DNA of 18,053 bases, from positions 1 through 18,053 of the forward strand of contig JACRKZ010000162.1 in the NCBI GenBank assembly GCA_016235455.1, in the 5' to 3' direction. The translations under genes and the position numbers were made by a program. The notes under the pieces were generated by a model, which searched no databases, was not told the DNA's origin, and saw nothing but the letters and a program-made list of their open reading frames with translations. Positions 1 to 5,722 of the stretch are shown piece by piece. The first letter of the stretch is position 1; each line of letters starts with the position of its first letter. This stretch comes from Armatimonadota bacterium (GTDB lineage Bacteria > Armatimonadota > UBA10988).

Positions 1-1935
1 CTCCGGCGCCTGGTAGCGCACGGTGATGCTGACCGGCTCGGTCTGGGCGCCGGCGTCGTTGGTGGCGGTGACGCTGATGACGTTCTCGCCGGGGTTCAAC
101 TCCACCGGTCCGGCGTACTCTTCCGGCCCGCGGATGGGCACAAACACGAACCGGCCTTGCCACGGCGCGCGACCATTGACCATGACCTGCGCCGAGGCGA
201 TCTTGCGGCCGTTGGGATCGCGGAGCTTGGCGCGCACGATGATCTTGTTGTCTGCGAACACCGCGCCGCCCGCGGGCGCCGTGACCTCGATGGTCGGCGG
301 CGCGAACGACGCCATTTGGCTGGCCACCAACGTTGGGTCTGTCTTCTGGTTGCGCTCGGCGTCGGCCTCCGCCACCGCCTTGGCGACGCTGCCGCACTTG
401 AGCACGCGACGGATGACGTCGGGGCGGTAGAACCTGTCGCGGAACTGTGCGGCGCGGTAGAAGAGCGGCTCACCGTCGCCCTGGTTGATCTGCCAGCCGA
501 CCCACTGCTCCGCACCTGGCGTGCAGGCGTAGTAGCCCTCCTCGGTCCAGGCCACCCACTCACCCTCTGGGGACACGTAGAGGCTGAGCAGAGGCGGCAC
601 CTCGGGGCGGGTGTCAGCCAGCGACCAGATGCGCATCACACACTCGCTGTCTCTCGCAGCCAGGTAGCGCTCGTCATTCATGACGGCGATTACTATCGTC
701 TGGTCCGCCGACGTCAACAGCCTGCGCTCCCTGTGGCCGTCGGACCCAAGCAGCTCAACGCCGCCCCACGGATAGCTGGCTGCCACTCGACGGCCACTCA
801 ACAGGGAGGTGGTCCAAAGGCTGCCGTCAGGGCTGAACTCCATGGATAGTGGATCACCTGGCGGCGGTGGATCCGATGCGGCCCACGCTAGTGCATCGCC
901 GTCGCGCGCGATGGCCAGGTAGGGTAACCAGAGGGAGTTCCGGCCGCTCATCCATAGCCGAGCGCCCAAGGTGTGACTCACGCCCAACATGCCTGCACTG
1001 CTCACTACGGCAACTTCGTTCCCGCTGGGCGACAGCGCCAGCGTGTACGGGCCCGCCACCGTTTCGATCGGGCGAGGAGGTTCCTCAACACCATCCGAAC
1101 CGAAGCTCCGCAGCACAGACCCCGACAACGCACAGAAGCCGCCATCGCGGCGCCGACTGAAGAGGTTGGTGTCGAGCCCGGTGACGGGCTTCACGGCGCC
1201 CGTCGCCACGTCTACAAGCACCGGTCCATGCCCCAGCCCGTTGACCGTGCAGATCAGAGAGCGGCCAGCACCATCCCACACCAAGTGGTTGACGCCGTTG
1301 GCGGGCTCGCCCAGCGGGGCCAACTCGTGCGCGGTTAGTGCTGGCCCATCGAGGATGGTCACTCGGGCTGGGTACCCGCCGCAGGCGATTTGCTTGCCAT
1401 CGGGCGAGAAGCTCACGCCGCAGACGTCGTACCCCAGAGCAGGTCGACCTAACTCAAGCCACGTCGCGGTATCCCACACGATCATTGCGGCGCCAGCCGC
1501 TGCCGCCAGGCGATCGCCAGCGGGCGAGAAGGTCACGTTGAAGGTCTCCGTTTGGCCTGCTGGCAACACCCGCAAGAGTCGTCGTGTCGCCATGTCGTAG
1601 ATGCGCACCGCATTGGCCGGTGGATAGCCTGCCACAGCAAGCCAGCGACCGTCCGGTGAGATAGCCACCGTGGAGATCCAGCCGGCCTGGCCTGCCCCAA
1701 TCGGCGCGCGGAGCGTGGCCCGCAGCGAACCGTCCTCCGCATCCCAGATACGGACGGCCTTGTCCCTTGCGCCAGTCACCAACTCTCGGCCATCCGGCGT
1801 CCAAGCCAAGGCGTAGGTGGGACCGCGATGCTGGCCGAGGTCGAGCACCGGAGTCGGCACCGACGCATCGTCGGCGGCCGACGCCTTGATCGCGCCCAGG
1901 GCAGCCACTGTCGCCAGCCAACCACCGATACGCAT
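1..1935 (-). CDS. Secreted WD40-repeat protein, probably with a C-terminal caspase-like (peptidase C14) domain beyond the window; 3' end truncated by the window edge
   Basis: Not in the ORF track because it has no stop in the window. Read by hand, the frame is open from ATG 1935 (or GTG 1938) to base 1, preceded by an SD GGGAGG at 1943-1948. It reads MRIGGWLATVAALGAIKASAADD (signal-like), then WD40 repeats (HRGPTYALAWTPDGRELVTGARDKAVRIWD; VAISPDGRWLAV; VSFSPDGKQIA), then EWVAWTEEGYYACTPGAEQWVGWQIN...QFRDRFYRPDVI and an Ig-like VELNPGENVISVTATN segment. That block is typical of WD40-C14 proteins. The caspase domain itself is not in the window. Confidence 0.88.
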   Translation of the reverse strand, partial: MRIGGWLATVAALGAIKASAADDASVPTPVLDLGQHRGPTYALAWTPDGRELVTGARDKAVRIWDAEDGSLRATLRAPIGAGQAGWISTVAISPDGRWLAVAGYPPANAVRIYDMATRRLLRVLPAGQTETFNVTFSPAGDRLAAAAGAAMIVWDTATWLELGRPALGYDVCGVSFSPDGKQIACGGYPARVTILDGPALTAHELAPLGEPANGVNHLVWDGAGRSLICTVNGLGHGPVLVDVATGAVKPVTGLDTNLFSRRRDGGFCALSGSVLRSFGSDGVEEPPRPIETVAGPYTLALSPSGNEVAVVSSAGMLGVSHTLGARLWMSGRNSLWLPYLAIARDGDALAWAASDPPPPGDPLSMEFSPDGSLWTTSLLSGRRVAASYPWGGVELLGSDGHRERRLLTSADQTIVIAVMNDERYLAARDSECVMRIWSLADTRPEVPPLLSLYVSPEGEWVAWTEEGYYACTPGAEQWVGWQINQGDGEPLFYRAAQFRDRFYRPDVIRRVLKCGSVAKAVAEADAERNQKTDPTLVASQMASFAPPTIEVTAPAGGAVFADNKIIVRAKLRDPNGRKIASAQVMVNGRAPWQGRFVFVPIRGPEEYAGPVELNPGENVISVTATNDAGAQTEPVSITVRYQAPE

Positions 1936-1941
1936 CACAAG

Positions 1942-1978
1942 CCCTCCCGCCGCGCCTACAGGATCGTACCATTTCCGG
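1942..1978 (-). promoter_or_regulatory. Putative extended -10 promoter (TGgTACGAT) and SD for the WD40 gene
   Basis: The minus strand reads ccggaaaTGGTACGAT...GGGAGGgcttgtgATG. The 14-mer cgtaccatttccgg (1965-1978) is identical at 4313-4326, while the flanking spacer has diverged. Confidence 0.55.
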
Positions 1979-2028
1979 GGAGCGAGTGAGCCGGGGGCGG
2001 TGTGAACATCAAGCGACGCCCGCGAGCG

Positions 2029-2315
2029 TCAGTGCGAACTCAGCAATCCCACCGGATCATCCACGCGTAGCGTGGCCGCGACGACACACGCCTCGCCCTG
2101 CGCACAGCCGATCTGCTGACCCCAATAGCCAGCTCTGCTGGCGGCGGCGGCGTGGTAGTCGCTGGTGCCAATGAACCGGTAGCCCTCGGGCATGGGCCGG
2201 TCGAACTGCGAGCTGTAGGCGGCGACGGCCTGGCGCTTGAGGTCCCAGACGCTGCTGATACCGACCACGAAGCTGGGTTAGGCGGCCTCGTGCGTCACGT
2301 AACACAGCGCCGCGC
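2029..2315 (-). pseudogene. bshB1: Duplicated, 5'-truncated 3' end of bshB1
   Basis: Hand alignment of 2051-2300 with 4400-4649 gives 14 mismatches in 250 nt and no gaps. The stop is at the equivalent position (DDPVGLLSSH* vs DDPVALLTQG*). There is a CAA->TAA nonsense change at 2278-2280, and the HPDD catalytic N-terminus is missing. Confidence 0.9.
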
Positions 2316-2513
2316 ATGGCGCGCATCGCACCGTCGGCCGCGGTCCAGGTGCGCGCGTCCCTGTCTGCGGCGCATGGACCAGCTCCCGGTGGTCGGGCGC
2401 CCAGGCGACGACGGACACCATGGCGTTGTGCCGCTCCGGGGTCCAGCATCTCCAATGGCCGGGCCACCGCCGCCGCAGACACGGCCACGTCCGTGCGCAA
2501 CCAGTACCGCCAG

Positions 2514-2850
2514 CTACCTCGACGCCGCCACCGGCAGGCTGCTGCGGATCGTCGTCGGCCGCTGCGGGGTCGGATGCTGCCGGCCCTCGGTCAGTTCCTT
2601 CACACGCTCGGCCACGAAGGCATCCAGTTCAGCGACGCTGATCACCCCGTCACCGCTCAGGTCGGCCTTGCCACCCAGGCCTTCCACCAGCGCCTTGGTG
2701 AAGGCGCCGTTGACCCATTCAGGCCGCTCGTAGCTGACCTCGCTGGGCATGCACGAGGCCAGCGTGATCACGCCGACCTCGTCGGTGGCGGCGTCGCGCA
2801 GGGCGTTGGCGTAGCACAGGCGACCAACCGGCCGCGTGCCTGACCCAGCG
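2514..2850 (-). pseudogene. Orphan C-terminal fragment of a caspase-like (peptidase C14) domain protein
   Basis: Reads YANALRDAATDEVGVITLASCMPSEVSYERPEWVNGAFTKALVEGLGGKADLSGDGVISVAELDAFVAERVKELTEGRQHP. The GAFTxAL...G.AD...DG.I...EL..FV..RV..LT.G.Q.P pattern is the usual C14 C-terminus. No His-Gly or D-x-C catalytic motifs and no convincing start. The 5' boundary is approximate. Confidence 0.8.
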
Positions 2851-2870
2851 CCGCGGTCGTTGCGTCCGCG

Positions 2871-4112
2871 TCACGGCCGCCAGTACGCGTCCACCGCCTC
2901 CTTCGCCAGCCGCACATAGCGCCGTCCGCGCTCGGCGTCACCGAAGATCGTCCCCACCTCGCGCTGCGCGATCTCGAACAGACAGCCGCTCGCCGCCTCG
3001 CAGACGCCCCGGAAGTAGGCCGTGATGGCCTCGTCGTCGAGCGGGCCGTGTCCGGTGACGAACTCGGCGCGGGGCTTGCTGTAGTAGACCACCCGGCTGC
3101 CGCGCAGATACTCACCGACCTGGCGCTCGTTGTTGAACGGCGAGACCGACAGCTTGCGCAACTTGGGCCACCGCGCCAGCCAATCGGGCCAGATGGCGTC
3201 GACGCGTTCGCAGCAACCATAGGAGAGCAGCCCATAGCGCGCGACCAGCCGATCCTGGTAGGGGAAGACGAACTCGCCGAAGGTGTCCGCCGCCACGGCC
3301 GTCGTCTCTTGGGACTCGAGGTAGCCCCAGCACTCGGTTGTGCGCGTCACCGCCCCGGTCGGCAGCTCGTCGGTGAAGGCGTAGGACTCCTGCGCCAGCG
3401 GGCTGAGGCCGGTCGTGGGCAGCAGCAGGCCCTCGGCTTCGAGGAAGTCGTAGTAGCGTTCGTACACCTGGGTGCCCATTTCCATGGCGGCATGCACGGC
3501 CTCTGGGCTGTCGTACATCGCCAGGTAGTAGGCTTCCATGCCCATCAGGTGAACGAGCGGGTTGGTCAAGCTGCCCCCCAAGCTGTCCATCACCATGCGC
3601 ACCGGCAGGATGTCGCCGATCAGGTCCTCGACCAGTTCGCGGTGACGCGCGGTGCCTTCGCGGTCGACGCCGAACGAGCCGCCGCGCAGCTTGTCCAGTT
3701 CGGCGGCCAGGTCGGTGATCACCGGGTCGATGTGGAACCCCTGCGCGTGCGGACCCTTGGCGCGCGTGATCTTGGCCTGCAGGCCAAAGGGACGGACATG
3801 GGTGTGCCAGCCCATGTCGAAGGTCGGCGGGATGGGCGTGTCGTCGTCGAACAGTTCGCGCCCGACCAGCCGGGCCAGGAGCGTCGCCTCCAGCCGGCGC
3901 GCGGCCTCTCCCTCGCATCGCAGGCGCGGGGTGATGACCTCGTGACCGAAGTTGGAGAAGAGCAGTCGGACGGGCGGGGACTCACGGCGCCCCTCCGCCT
4001 GCGCCTGCCACTGGCGGAGAATCGCCTCGTTGCGCGGCGACGTGGCGTACTCGAGCTGGAGCTGCGCTCGCTGTCTCAGGACCTCCCGGTCGCGGGCGGA
4101 TACTGCCTCCAT
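2871..4112 (-). CDS. Uncharacterised UROD/MetE-like (uroporphyrinogen decarboxylase-fold) protein, 413 aa
   Basis: Clean high-GC3 ORF with SD AAGGAG. Motifs LVHLMGMEAYYLAMYDSPEAVH, ESQET...FGEFVFPYQ, YGCCE and LRKLSVSP are recalled from this family; function is unknown. Confidence 0.75.
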   Translation of the reverse strand: MEAVSARDREVLRQRAQLQLEYATSPRNEAILRQWQAQAEGRRESPPVRLLFSNFGHEVITPRLRCEGEAARRLEATLLARLVGRELFDDDTPIPPTFDMGWHTHVRPFGLQAKITRAKGPHAQGFHIDPVITDLAAELDKLRGGSFGVDREGTARHRELVEDLIGDILPVRMVMDSLGGSLTNPLVHLMGMEAYYLAMYDSPEAVHAAMEMGTQVYERYYDFLEAEGLLLPTTGLSPLAQESYAFTDELPTGAVTRTTECWGYLESQETTAVAADTFGEFVFPYQDRLVARYGLLSYGCCERVDAIWPDWLARWPKLRKLSVSPFNNERQVGEYLRGSRVVYYSKPRAEFVTGHGPLDDEAITAYFRGVCEAASGCLFEIAQREVGTIFGDAERGRRYVRLAKEAVDAYWRP

Positions 4113-4117
4113 GGGTT

Positions 4118-4178
4118 GGCTCCTTGCTCCGTGCGGCCGACGGCATCGGTGCCGCGTGCAGGGGCGCCCATTCTAGCA
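4118..4178 (-). promoter_or_regulatory. Putative extended -10 (TGcTAGAAT, 4170-4178) and SD for the UROD-like gene
   Basis: Near-consensus TGnTAnAAT in a GC-rich background, ~58 nt upstream of the ATG, with AAGGAG just before the start. Confidence 0.6.
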
Positions 4179-4283
4179 CTGTCCGGAGCACTCCGCGCGG
4201 CCGCATCGCGGCCGGCCGCAGGACACAATGGCACCGCGCATCCCCCATTGGGCGCTCCCCGCCAGCACGACCAGTCCAGGCAT
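4173..4283 (-). pseudogene. Start remnant of the proximal WD40/C14 gene copy (36 codons)
   Basis: GGGAGG-gcat-GTG-ATG sits at the same relative position as the 1935 start. MPGLVVLA aligns to MRIGGWLA, and the frame then ends at a TAG within the next gene's -10 box. Confidence 0.45.
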
Positions 4284-4664
4284 CACATGCCCTCCCGTCG
4301 CACTTCGGGTAGCGTACCATTTCCGGCGTACCCATGCCGCGTTGCGGCTGGAGGATGCGCGCTGCCGGACGGCTGGCTCAGCCCTGGGTCAGCAGCGCCA
4401 CCGGATCATCCACCCGCAGCGTGCCCGCGACCACATACGCCTCGCCCTGCGCACAGCCGATCTGCTGGCCCCAATAGCCAGCTCTGCTGGCGGCTGCGGC
4501 GTGGTAGTCGCTGGTGCCGATGAAGCGGTAGCCCTCGGGCATGGGTCGGTCGAACTGCGAGCTGTAGGCGGCGACGGCCTGTCGCTTGAGGTCCCAGACG
4601 CTGCTGATATCGACCACGAAGCTGGGTTGGGCGGCCTCGTGCATCACGTAGTACAGCACGGCGC
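4260..4664. repeat. Direct repeat copy 2 (includes the functional bshB1 3' end and the duplicated promoter/SD)
   Basis: Collinear with copy 1 at 1912-2315. The -10-like element here is TGgTACGCT (4311-4319) and the SD is at 4290-4296. Confidence 0.85.
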
Positions 4665-5103
4665 GGGGCGAGTGCGGCGCGTGCGCGGTCTCGATGCGGG
4701 CCATGCGCGCCCAGAAGGCACCGGCCGTGACGAAGGCGCTGGCCGCGGCGTGGTCCGGGTGGCGATCGGTGGGCATGGGCGCGAGCACCAGCGTGGGCCG
4801 GTAGCGGCGGATGGTGTCGGCCACGAGCAGTCGGTAGTCGAGATTGTCGGTGAGGTGCAGGTCGGGCAGGCCCAGGTTCTCGCGCGCGGCCAGACCCAGG
4901 ATCTGCGCCGCGCGGCCCGCCTCGATCTCGCGTTCTGCCACGCTCCCTCGACTGGCGCCCTCGCCACGGGTCAGGTCGATGGCCGCGGCGCCTTGACCGC
5001 GTTGGGCGGCCAGGGCCAGCAGGCCGCCGCCGCCCAGTTCAATGTCGTCAGGATGGGCACCAAAGGCCAGCACCGCGACCTGGGGCGTGTCAGTCGTCGT
5101 CAT
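4378..5103 (-). CDS. bshB1: Bacillithiol biosynthesis deacetylase BshB1 (PIG-L/LmbE family), 241 aa
   Basis: Motifs GAHPDDIELGGGG, DLTRGE, DRHPDH, VDISSVWDLKRQAVAAYSSQF and GQQIGCAQGEAY. The start is placed at ATG 5103 (MTTTDTPQ), overlapping the plsY end, rather than at 5166. Confidence 0.88.
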   Translation of the reverse strand: MTTTDTPQVAVLAFGAHPDDIELGGGGLLALAAQRGQGAAAIDLTRGEGASRGSVAEREIEAGRAAQILGLAARENLGLPDLHLTDNLDYRLLVADTIRRYRPTLVLAPMPTDRHPDHAAASAFVTAGAFWARMARIETAHAPHSPRAVLYYVMHEAAQPSFVVDISSVWDLKRQAVAAYSSQFDRPMPEGYRFIGTSDYHAAAASRAGYWGQQIGCAQGEAYVVAGTLRVDDPVALLTQG

Positions 5104-5722
5104 CGCGTTCCGGGTCCTCGATGCCCTGGGGCGCGGCTTTGCGGCCGAAGCGCAGCTCCTCGCCACGCATCAGTCGGCGGAGGTTGGAGCGGTGGCGCAC
5201 CCAGATGACCAGCGTGCCGGCCCAGAAGGCGACCTTGTAGGAGGTGGGCAGGTGCAGGGCCGTGGCCACCAGCGCGGCCACGGTGATGCCGGCCAGCGAG
5301 CCCACCGACACGTAGCCGGTCAGCTTGAAGACAACGGCCCACAGCGCCAGCCCGATGACCGCTGGCCAGGCGCCCAGCGCGGCGAGGAAGCCCAGACTGG
5401 TGCTGACGCCCTTGCCGCCGCCGCCGCCGAGGAAGATGGAGCACGAATGGCCGAGCAGCGAGGCCATGCCGGCGGCGACGTGCAGCACCGGCCACTGCGG
5501 CGAGATGGCACGGGCCACGAGCACGGGCAACAGGCCCTTGAGCACGTCGAGCAGGAAGGCGGGCAGGCCGGCCTTGGCACCGCACGTGCGCCACACGTTG
5601 GTCGCGCCGATGTTGCCGCTGCCGGCCTTGCGCACATCGACGCCGCAGGCGCGACCAATGAGCAGGCCGAACGGCACGGCGCCGAACAGGTAGGCGACCG
5701 GAATGAGAAGCCAAGCCATCAT
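5090..5722 (-). CDS. plsY: Glycerol-3-phosphate acyltransferase PlsY
   Basis: Motifs AYLFGAVPFG, GSGNIGATNVWR, DVLKG, GH...FLGGGGGKGVST, GYVSVGS and RHRSNLRRLMRGEE; multi-TM; close to der. Confidence 0.96.
   Translation of the reverse strand: MMAWLLIPVAYLFGAVPFGLLIGRACGVDVRKAGSGNIGATNVWRTCGAKAGLPAFLLDVLKGLLPVLVARAISPQWPVLHVAAGMASLLGHSCSIFLGGGGGKGVSTSLGFLAALGAWPAVIGLALWAVVFKLTGYVSVGSLAGITVAALVATALHLPTSYKVAFWAGTLVIWVRHRSNLRRLMRGEELRFGRKAAPQGIEDPERDDDD

What the first reader, a model, noticed from the sequence alone, without database searches (positions are those of the whole stretch)
1912..4664. Tandem cassette anchored on the bshB1 3' end: [bshB1 tail + promoter + WD40/caspase-like gene] occurs twice
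Seen: two collinear copies 2348-2349 bp apart each contain the bshB1 tail with its stop at the same position, an identical 14-mer carrying a -10-like box, the SD, GTG-ATG and aligned first codons. The proximal unit ends in a C14-type C-terminus (2514-2850) just before the repeat restarts. Inference: WD40-C14 genes accumulate here additively, with the 3' end of a housekeeping gene serving as the recombination anchor, as in additive islands at tRNA genes but with no integrase in view. This could be an expanding, exchangeable array of secreted sensor-protease variants. A single old tandem duplication is the simpler alternative.
Basis: partly seen in the sequence, partly recalled or inferred. Interest (0 to 1): 0.8.

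Follow-up and report, generated by a model that had tools for sequence, protein, structure and literature searches.

The report
Recombination scar duplicating the bshB1 tail
A 2.35-kb piece of DNA was recombined in behind the housekeeping gene bshB1 of an uncultured groundwater bacterium, copying the gene's last 94 codons and leaving wrecked WD40-caspase gene pieces, so this is an ordinary if untidy insertion scar and not a working gene-collecting array.

Summary
The repeat is real: 282 nt at 92% identity (2040-2321 vs 4389-4670), plus a 50-nt block 2348 nt apart holding an identical 14-mer, the SD and GTG-ATG. Per-sample public contigs from three samples bridge every junction.

The two units are not two WD40/caspase genes.
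- The proximal unit holds only the first ~25 and last ~115 codons of a destroyed WD40-caspase gene. Its middle is replaced by an intact, horizontally acquired 413-aa gene with a URO-D-like fold.
- Next comes a second decayed WD40 gene head (codons ~4-78), then the bshB1 tail pseudogene, which has an in-frame TAA.
- Only the distal WD40 gene is open, and the contig end cuts it just before the expected caspase domain.

None of four family relatives has any of these genes behind bshB1. The MAG holds no third tail and the window no integrase.

Two other loci in this genome show the same partial-gene duplication around a ~2-kb insert (C110, with another caspase fragment, and C17).

Best reading: one-ended or single-crossover recombination with DNA from a related strain carrying another version of a variable locus. 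This is a known kind of event (HFIR or Campbell-type partial duplication). The additive-array reading is only partly supported.

The parts
4378..5103 (-). bshB1, the intact bacillithiol deacetylase gene. Its last ~94 codons are the proximal repeat copy.
   Evidence: TIGR04001 234.3 bits against a cutoff of 182.5; PF02585; orthologs at 66-81% aa in 4 relatives in the same TGase-plsY-bshB1 order.
4389..4670 (-). R: proximal copy of the repeat, part of the working bshB1.
4277..4326 (-). Proximal P block: 14-mer (4313-4326), GGGAGGG (4290-4296), GTG (4284-4286), ATG (4281-4283).
   Evidence: A promoter function is inferred only; the consensus scan found none.
4210..4286 (-). A-head: the first ~25 codons of a destroyed WD40-caspase gene.
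   Evidence: Local alignment to the distal gene's 5' end scores 64 against shuffles of 35.2 +/- 4.7.
2866..4218 (-). Inserted block: 106 nt of upstream DNA plus the intact 413-aa gene (2871-4112), which has a URO-D/MtaA-like fold.
   Evidence: 87.8% nt identity over 1356 nt to G002:C6, where the flanks are unrelated. 1495 homologs, of which the top 120 are 77-92% identical and 107 of them exactly 413 aa. No Pfam or NCBIfam match. Foldseek PDB: UROD and an M. mazei methyltransferase, E 7e-6 to 1e-3.
2514..2865 (-). A-tail: the last ~115 codons and the stop of a peptidase C14 (caspase-like) domain. The catalytic His and Cys regions are absent.
   Evidence: PF00656; 65% aa to C87 residues 847-953; 62-70% to all 7 other family C-termini compared.
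2307..2533 (-). C-head: a decayed, frameshifted copy of WD40 gene codons ~4-78.
   Evidence: DNA local alignment to 1706-1927 scores 105 against shuffles of 59.5 +/- 7.3, maximum 83. A stricter alignment scores 37 against 24.1 +/- 3.2. Two collinear protein matches lie in different frames.
2029..2321 (-). R': distal bshB1 tail pseudogene (codons ~147-240), with an in-frame TAA at 2278-2280.
   Evidence: Y>C, D>G and Y>C fall at residues invariant in 5 orthologs; M>T falls at a residue that is M or I in them.
2014..2031 (-). Terminator-like hairpin just after the distal tail's stop.
   Evidence: 1 site found, 0.6 expected, so weak evidence.
1929..1978 (-). Distal P' block: 14-mer (1965-1978), GGGAGGG (1942-1948), GTG (1936-1938), ATG (1933-1935).
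1..1938 (-). B: an open WD40 / beta-propeller / Ig-like gene with a signal-peptide-like start. 646 codons are present; the contig end cuts it just before the expected C14 domain.
   Evidence: WD40 PF00400 70 bits. It aligns to residues 5-701 of the 960-aa C87 paralog. All 8 non-self database homologs at E<=1e-30 carry PF00656, and the nearest is 50% identical.

Best explanation
This is a layered recombination scar at a variable locus downstream of bshB1.

Mechanism. About 2.35 kb of DNA from a related strain, carrying another version of the same locus, recombined into the chromosome using the bshB1 3' region as homology. The route was either single-crossover (Campbell-type) integration of a circularised fragment or homology-facilitated illegitimate recombination.

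Result.
- bshB1 is completed by the proximal tail copy.
- The other tail copy (2029-2321) is stranded and decaying.
- The older unit (P' plus WD40 gene B) is pushed downstream but keeps its own start signals.

The inserted DNA carried an already or later wrecked WD40-caspase gene: head codons 1-25 and tail codons ~845-960. Its middle is replaced by a horizontally acquired 413-aa URO-D-like gene. It also carried a second WD40 head fragment.

Shown: the repeat, the junctions, the identity of each fragment, the foreign origin of the 413-aa block, and the absence of these genes behind bshB1 in relatives.

Inferred: the donor, the order of events and the exact recombination route.
For: 1. The structure is real. 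Per-sample contigs from 3 samples bridge all junctions at similar depth. The longest exact stretch shared by the two copies is 35 nt.
2. One intact and one truncated copy of the anchor gene flank heterologous DNA. That is the product reported for single-crossover integration of a circle carrying part of the target: 56 of 60 clones, with duplications of 109-950 bp in the 14 clones sequenced (PMC3240628, passages read).
3. Divergence is uneven. The tails have dS 0.24 and dN 0.055. In the 57-codon core there are 6 synonymous and 0 non-synonymous changes. The adjacent 50-nt intergenic stretch is at background identity, and the WD40 heads are only ~66% identical in DNA. The two units were therefore not born as identical neighbours of one age.
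4. The parallel locus on C110 has a 344-nt tail of an Amidohydro_2 gene duplicated at 86.6% identity. It shows 13 synonymous against 6 conservative non-synonymous changes, with no stop (dS 0.25, dN 0.033). The binomial P is 0.028 against the fraction expected if one copy had drifted neutrally. The same-genus relative G001 has that gene followed directly by the gene that lies beyond the insert in G000.
5. A third locus, C17, has a uvrA head copy flanking a 534-aa gene.
6. The 413-aa block sits at an unrelated locus in G002 with sharp homology borders.
7. None of the 4 relatives has WD40, C14 or the 413-aa gene behind bshB1.
Against: - For the bshB1 tails alone the split is 10 synonymous to 10 non-synonymous changes. 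That also fits one copy drifting as a pseudogene since an in-place duplication (P 0.37).
- The disabling changes in the tail pseudogene all lie outside the 57-codon core, which neither model predicts.
- A donor at dS ~0.24 should have ~80% identical intergenic DNA. An extra assumption is therefore needed: deeply diverged haplotypes starting at the end of bshB1.
- No donor or single-unit strain was seen.
- Phasing across the two shared 31-35-nt runs rests on the MAG assembly, because the public contigs break there.
- Junction microhomologies (15-20 nt overlaps) come from permissive alignments of GC-rich DNA.
Confidence: 0.55

Rival explanations
1. An old in-place tandem duplication of [bshB1 tail - intergenic - promoter - WD40 gene head]. 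Gene conversion from the working bshB1 then kept the tail copy similar. Deletions and the insertion of the 413-aa gene came later.
For: - Spacing between the tail and the P block is kept to within 1 nt (offsets 2349 and 2348).
- Identity is highest in the middle of the repeat and falls at both edges: about 3% mismatches in 2088-2279 against 17-19% at the ends. Conversion tracts look like this.
- The 10:10 split of synonymous to non-synonymous changes fits one drifting copy.
- The pseudogene carries a stop and changes at invariant residues.
Against: - The core has 6 synonymous and 0 non-synonymous differences (dS 0.18, dN 0). A recent conversion would erase both kinds, and later drift of a pseudogene should mostly add non-synonymous changes.
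- The C110 pair has dN/dS 0.13 and no disabling change.
- This model needs separate events to explain two extra WD40 heads and a C14 tail in scrambled order.
Confidence: 0.25
2. A small integrative element that uses the 3' end of bshB1 as its attachment site and brings a replacement tail, as prophages in icd do (recalled, not checked here). It would be mobilised by a recombinase encoded elsewhere, and such elements could stack up.
For: - A direct repeat of a gene's 3' end flanks foreign DNA while the target gene stays intact.
- The low dN/dS of the repeats fits a tail that must work on arrival.
- The three inserts are of similar size: 2349, 2192 and 2207 bp.
Against: - None of the 16 window ORFs scanned against Pfam matched a recombinase family. 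On C110, the three genes in and beside that insert were scanned and also matched none.
- The three targets are unrelated, and one of them is a 5' head.
- The repeat edges are the most diverged part, so there is no identical core at a boundary.
- Only the C14 fragment is shared between the C108 and C110 inserts.
- None of the 4 relatives has anything of this kind at bshB1.
Confidence: 0.07
3. An assembly artefact: two co-occurring strains' versions of the bshB1 locus were laid in tandem by the metagenome assembler.
For: - The genome is a MAG of 185 contigs, and the window is a whole contig ending inside a gene.
- Many contig ends overlap other contigs at 95-98% identity, a sign of strain mixture.
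- The public contigs carry 141 extra letters at 832/833.
- The public contigs cannot phase the copies across the shared 31-35-mers.
Against: - The novel junction between the truncated tail and the WD40 head / C14 flank lies inside single contigs of 327-607 nt in 3 samples: 2203-2597, 2203-2809 and 2203-2529.
- So do the C14/413 junction and the link from the distal tail to gene B.
- Depths are alike along the whole stretch.
- A truncated, stop-bearing tail fused to a WD40 fragment cannot be made by mis-joining two intact alleles.
Confidence: 0.05

Closest known systems
Partial target-gene duplication by single-crossover integration of a circular molecule, and homology-facilitated illegitimate recombination (HFIR). 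Source: E. coli conjugation study PMC3240628 (passages read). The original HFIR papers were only seen cited in PMC5361080.
   Same: One homologous anchor. Heterologous DNA is inserted. One copy of the anchor gene is left whole and one truncated. Duplication sizes of 109-950 bp bracket the 282-344 nt seen here.
   Different: Those are laboratory events with known substrates. Here the donor is unknown, the event is natural and old enough for 8-14% divergence, and the inserted DNA is itself a mosaic of gene wrecks.
Sequential displacement arrays: T6SS effector-immunity arrays in Vibrio cholerae (PMC5361080, passages read) and Rhs C-terminal displacement (only as cited there).
   Same: A conserved upstream anchor. 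The incoming module lands next to the anchor, and the older module is shifted downstream. Orphaned gene fragments pile up and no integrase is needed.
   Different: No toxin-immunity logic is visible. Only one anchor duplication is present. The newest module is dead and the displaced one is the live gene. The anchor is a housekeeping gene outside the variable family.
[quoted passage not shown]
   Same: The repeated unit here has that same composition: the 3' end of one gene, a spacer, and the 5' end of the next.
   Different: In lpl, both ORFs are tandem paralogs that recombine at a conserved central region. Here the upstream ORF is an unrelated housekeeping gene.
Prokaryotic caspase homologs (orthocaspases) fused to WD40 repeats (PMC3501461, search listing only).
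   Same: Gene B's family has WD40 repeats plus a C-terminal peptidase C14 domain. The C87 paralog has both, and all 8 database homologs carry PF00656.
   Different: Gene B itself is cut before the C14 domain. A signal-peptide-like start suggests export. No function is known.

Membership tests
Integrase-type genomic island at a gene 3' end (additive or tandem islands) | A site-specific recombinase gene in or beside the element | tested here: not met
   Pfam scans of 16 window ORFs found no integrase, recombinase or transposase. DNA to the left of the contig end is unseen.
Integrase-type genomic island at a gene 3' end (additive or tandem islands) | Flanking direct repeats with an identical core at the crossover boundary | tested here: not met
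   The repeats exist, but the longest exact run is 35 nt in the middle, and both edges are the most diverged parts.
Integrase-type genomic island at a gene 3' end (additive or tandem islands) | The same target site is used repeatedly, in further units or in relatives | tested here: not met
   Only 2 bshB1-type tails are in the MAG. None of 4 relatives has an insert of this kind behind bshB1.
HFIR / Campbell-type partial duplication | One intact and one truncated copy of the anchor gene flanking heterologous DNA | tested here: met
   bshB1 is intact, the distal tail is truncated at codon ~147 and carries a TAA, and 2.07 kb of other DNA lies between.
HFIR / Campbell-type partial duplication | Copies diverged as functional alleles before being joined (synonymous bias) | tested here: inconclusive
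   At C110, 13 synonymous against 6 non-synonymous changes (P 0.028). At C108, 10 against 10 overall (P 0.37), but 6 against 0 in the core.
HFIR / Campbell-type partial duplication | An illegitimate joint at short microhomology | tested here: inconclusive
   Both partners align across 15-20 nt at the three joints. However, the alignments are permissive and the DNA is 70% GC.
Displacement array (Rhs / T6SS effector-immunity type) | A string of orphan fragments, each keeping a piece of the conserved anchor | tested here: not met
   Of the displaced pieces, only the distal unit begins with a copy of the bshB1 anchor (R'). The C-head and the A-tail carry no anchor piece.
Displacement array (Rhs / T6SS effector-immunity type) | Toxin-immunity gene pairs | tested here: not met
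   The genes present are a URO-D-like enzyme gene and WD40/C14 fragments. No immunity-like partner was seen. This absence rests on Pfam only.
WD40-orthocaspase (peptidase C14) - gene B | A C14 domain with the catalytic His and Cys | not testable with these tools
   The contig ends at codon 646, just before the domain starts in the C87 paralog. No other contig of the MAG holds the rest.
WD40-orthocaspase (peptidase C14) - fragment 2514-2865 | A complete p20 domain with the catalytic dyad | tested here: not met
   The fragment matches only profile positions 154-227 of 233. It starts after the Cys motif that the C87 and C110 sequences show.
BshB1 (TIGR04001) | Score above NCBIfam's equivalog cut-off | tested here: met
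   234.3 bits against 182.5.
URO-D superfamily - 413-aa gene | Sequence match to PF01208 | tested here: not met
   No Pfam family at E<=0.01. One Atlas look-alike cluster has URO-D on 58% of its members.
URO-D superfamily - 413-aa gene | A URO-D / MtaA-type barrel fold | tested here: met
   Model pLDDT 79, pTM 0.81. 20 PDB matches at E<=1e-3, all listed ones being UROD or an M. mazei methyltransferase, with TM 0.42-0.60.

The most novel reading that the evidence does not exclude
In this Fimbriimonadaceae lineage, WD40-caspase genes may form a polymorphic, often-replaced locus type. Incoming alleles and cargo genes would be stacked beside a conserved anchor, either a housekeeping gene end or the conserved C14 3' end, and older copies pushed downstream and truncated. 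That would be an integrase-free displacement process, like Rhs/T6SS arrays but acting on exported sensor-proteases.

Hints:
- Three WD40 heads lie at one locus.
- Both orphan C14 tails of the genome lie inside such partial-duplication scars (C108, C110).
- Both scars have the same dS, about 0.25.
- In a related genome the four paralogs are 23-50% identical in the WD40 part but 96-100% in the C14 end.
Probability: 0.15. Interest if true: 0.55.

Novelty: new member of a known kind. Interest (0 to 1): 0.3.

Why it matters
The finding shows how a housekeeping gene's end can serve as the homologous foothold for bringing foreign DNA into an uncultured Armatimonadota genome without any mobile-element machinery. 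The same footprint recurs at three loci of one genome.

For annotators it is a warning. The 'second cassette' is debris, the distal bshB1 piece is a pseudogene, and the live genes are bshB1, the 413-aa URO-D-like gene and the truncated WD40 gene B.

If the bolder reading held, caspase-like sensor proteins would join toxins and effectors as gene families diversified by displacement.

Tried and rejected
- A metagenome-contig scan with gene B's protein returned 154 pattern hits, none confirmed.
- A protein search with lengths 'longer' gave only generic WD40 proteins of 1132 aa or more and was useless for finding the full-length gene. The 'near' search found no relative closer than 50%, so B's C-terminus could not be recovered.
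- Run X5 (another study) has contigs 98-99% identical over about 3127-5110, and little or nothing on 1-2088. Missing cover in contigs is no evidence of absence, so I draw nothing from it.
- The joints in table 5 have sides of only 20-24 nt, so I treated them as noise. No joint corresponding to loop-out of the repeat can be seen with contigs.
- The sigma-70 consensus scan found 0 sites, so 'promoter' stays an inference.
- The 14-mer is not upstream of the C87 paralog or of the G002 paralogs, so it is not a family-wide signal.
- No tandem repeat in 1-2000 explains the 141-nt difference.
- GC content shows no foreign island, at 65-72% throughout.
- The region 2322-2400 has no residual homology to bshB1 upstream of codon 147: 27-29% identity, which is background.
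- Earlier notes of this scan on the same genome concern other loci.
- Outgroup polarisation of the tail differences was considered but not run, because both main models predict the same result.
Full report
SETTING

The window is an entire 18,053-bp contig (C108) of a 6.5-Mb, 185-contig MAG that is 93% complete. Public runs holding it are groundwater metagenomes. A family-level relative's record is titled 'uncultured Fimbriimonadaceae bacterium', and an earlier scan note also places the genome in Armatimonadota.

All genes of interest lie on the minus strand. They follow the order der-like GTPase, transglutaminase-like protein, plsY, bshB1.

THE OBSERVATION

The direct repeat is real.
- 2040-2321 and 4389-4670 are 282 nt at 92% identity (E 3e-112).
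- A second island, 1929-1978 vs 4277-4326, is 78% identical at an offset shorter by one base.
- This island holds a 14-mer found nowhere else in the genome at up to one mismatch: 2 of 2 hits are these sites. It also holds a GGGAGGG box and GTG-ATG.
- Between the two islands, 50 nt are at background identity: 32-34% against 29 +/- 6%.
- The codons after the start are barely alike.
- The consensus promoter scan finds nothing, so calling the 14-mer a promoter is an inference.

IS IT AN ASSEMBLY ARTEFACT?

Independent per-sample contigs (Logan, k=31) from three samples of one study match the window.
- They cover 921-2117, 2089-2227, 2203-2597 (or 2203-2809) and 2780-4466, with 0-2 differences in the best holder (X1) and 0-9 in X2.
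- In X2 their depths are 31.3, 33, 37.6, 33.6 and 25.1.
- They break only where the two copies share exact runs of 31 and 35 nt.

Every novel junction therefore exists in reads. What the contigs cannot show is phasing across those two short runs. That rests on the MAG assembly, for which any k above 35 would suffice.

I put an artefact at about 5%.

ANATOMY (minus strand, reading from high to low coordinates)

1. bshB1, 4378-5103. TIGR04001 scores 234 bits against a cutoff of 182.5.
2. P block, followed by the first ~25 codons of a WD40-type gene, which I call the 'A-head' (4286-~4210). Its alignment to the distal gene's start scores 64 against shuffles of 35 +/- 4.7.
3. A block, 4218-2866.
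   - It is 87.8% identical in DNA to a locus in relative G002 whose flanks are unrelated.
   - It holds an intact 413-aa gene (2871-4112) with its own AAGGAG box.
4. Directly after that gene's stop comes the last ~115 codons and the stop of a peptidase C14 domain, the 'A-tail' (2865-2514). It scores on PF00656 and is 65% identical to residues 847-953 of the 960-aa paralog on C87.
5. A decayed second WD40 head, the 'C-head' (2533-2307).
   - It is frameshifted and about 66% identical in DNA to codons ~4-78 of the distal gene.
   - Its alignment scores 105 against shuffles of 59.5 +/- 7.3.
6. The bshB1 tail copy, R' (2321-2029). It carries an in-frame TAA. Y>C, D>G and Y>C fall at residues invariant in five orthologs, and M>T falls at a residue that is M or I in them.
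7. P' and gene B (1938-1).
   - 646 open codons with a signal-peptide-like start, WD40 repeats and an Ig-like domain.
   - The contig end cuts it exactly where the C87 paralog's C14 domain begins.
   - All 8 non-self database homologs carry PF00656, but none is closer than 50%.
   - No other contig of the MAG holds the missing end.

The proximal 'cassette' is therefore not a WD40/caspase gene. It is the head and tail of one such gene, gutted by an unrelated gene, plus a further head.

COMPARATIVE CONTEXT

- Four relatives (one of the same genus, three of the same family) keep transglutaminase-plsY-bshB1. None has a match to gene B, the C14 fragment or the 413-aa gene in the 1.5-13.5 kb fetched downstream. 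Each has different neighbours there.
- Gene B's family occurs in 25 of 401 genomes sampled from the phylum. It is multi-copy in two family members.
- The MAG contains only two bshB1-type tails and three loci of the WD40-C14 family.
- No recombinase was found among the window's ORFs.

HOW DID IT ARISE?

Age signals. A plain tandem duplication predicts parts of equal age, but the parts differ.
- The tails have dS 0.24 and dN 0.055. The 57-codon core has 6 synonymous and 0 non-synonymous changes.
- The neighbouring non-coding 50 nt are saturated.
- The WD40 heads are only ~66% identical.

Gene conversion. It could keep the tail young, and the identity profile, high in the centre and low at both edges, looks like conversion. 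But conversion would erase synonymous differences too. Later drift of a pseudogene should add mostly non-synonymous ones.

A second locus, on contig C110, settles more.
- The last 344 nt of an Amidohydro_2 gene are duplicated at 86.6% identity, 2192 bp apart.
- Between the copies lie a GH5 gene and an inverted C14 C-terminal fragment.
- The copies differ by 13 synonymous and 6 conservative non-synonymous changes with no stop: dS 0.25, dN 0.033. The binomial P is 0.028 against the fraction expected if one copy had drifted.
- In the same-genus relative, the amidohydrolase gene is followed directly by the gene that lies beyond the insert in this genome.
- That pair therefore diverged as working alleles in separate lineages before being joined, and its dS equals that of the bshB1 pair.

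A third locus, on contig C17, has a decayed uvrA 5' head 2207 bp upstream of the real uvrA, with a 534-aa secreted-protein gene between them.

Conclusion on mechanism. The process is generic: recombination with DNA from a related lineage, using part of a conserved gene as homology. It leaves one whole and one truncated copy. Laboratory work reports this product:
- Single crossover of a circular molecule carrying part of the target gave duplications in 56 of 60 clones, of 109-950 bp in the 14 clones sequenced (PMC3240628).
- HFIR has been proposed for integrase-free 'sequential displacement' arrays (PMC5361080).

The unit repeated here (3' end of one ORF, spacer, 5' end of the next) has also been described as a unit of evolution in another system (PMC2568036, abstract).

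- The anchor role of the bshB1 end is supported.
- The presence of three WD40 heads shows repeated turnover of WD40-caspase genes at this site.
- An expanding, exchangeable array is not supported. There are only two tails, one live gene and no recombinase, and relatives have nothing comparable.
- Whether gene B ends in a C14 domain like 2514-2850 cannot be told.

UNEXPLAINED

- In both C108 and C110, the ~45 nt of the stranded copy next to the junction are far more diverged than the rest.
- In C108, all disabling changes lie outside the core.
- The three inserts are of similar size (2349, 2192, 2207 bp). This may simply reflect one gene plus its flanks.

THE CARGO GENE

- The 413-aa protein has 1495 database relatives at E<=1e-10. 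The top 120 are 77-92% identical, and 107 of them are exactly 413 aa.
- Where a source names the organism, it is Lentisphaeria/Lentisphaerae, Victivallales, Kiritimatiellae, Verrucomicrobia, Spirochaetota or Marinimicrobia. Genome records add Spirochaetaceae, Planctomycetota/Phycisphaerae, Clostridia and Oscillospiraceae.
- Among 40 relatives of this genome, only one has a copy above 90% identity.
- It matches no Pfam or NCBIfam model.
- Its model (pLDDT 79) matches uroporphyrinogen decarboxylases and an M. mazei methyltransferase. One Atlas look-alike cluster carries URO-D on 58% of its members.
- Invariant His, Cys and Cys-Cys-Glu positions suggest a metal site. This last point is inference.

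VERDICT

It is a natural insertion scar with partial duplication of the anchor gene, lying in a locus where WD40-caspase genes turn over.

Noticed in passing
G000 contig C110, 5347-7882 (locus L062): A second scar of the same build. The 344-nt tail of an Amidohydro_2 gene is duplicated at 86.6% identity, 2192 bp apart, around a GH5 gene and an inverted C14 C-terminal fragment. It shows 13 synonymous against 6 non-synonymous differences and no stop.
   Followed up: yes
G000 contig C17, 18461-18710 and 20668-20918: A decayed copy of the uvrA 5' head (84% identity; it carries a stop and a deletion) lies 2207 bp upstream of the real uvrA. A 534-aa signal-peptide protein gene lies between them.
   Followed up: partly
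window 2871-4112 (-): The 413-aa protein belongs to a very strongly conserved family without a Pfam model. The top 120 homologs are 77-92% identical and 107 of them are exactly 413 aa. They span several phyla (PVC group, Spirochaetota, Clostridia). The predicted fold is URO-D/MtaA-like, and His and Cys positions are invariant. The genome also has five ~30% paralogs.
   Followed up: partly
loci L058-L061 (four WD40-C14 paralogs of relative G002): Within one genome, the paralogs are 23-50% identical in the N-terminal WD40 part but 96-100% identical in the C14 C-terminus. This suggests concerted evolution or module shuffling onto a conserved protease end.
   Followed up: partly
window 832/833: Public contigs of runs X1 and X2 carry 141 extra letters (47 codons, in frame) inside gene B relative to the MAG contig, and X3's contigs break there. 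This may be a strain-level gain or loss of about one propeller blade. No tandem repeat is present in the window.
   Followed up: partly
whole genome G000 (contig ends): Many contig ends overlap other contigs over 250-790 nt at 94-99% identity, for example C11/C147, C16/C44, C26/C87 and C39/C50. This is a sign of strain mixture in the source assembly.
   Followed up: no
window 2280-2321 and C110 5645-5689: In both scars, the ~45 nt of the stranded gene-tail copy next to the junction are much more diverged than the rest of the repeat. In the window these changes are mostly transitions at conserved codons.
   Followed up: no
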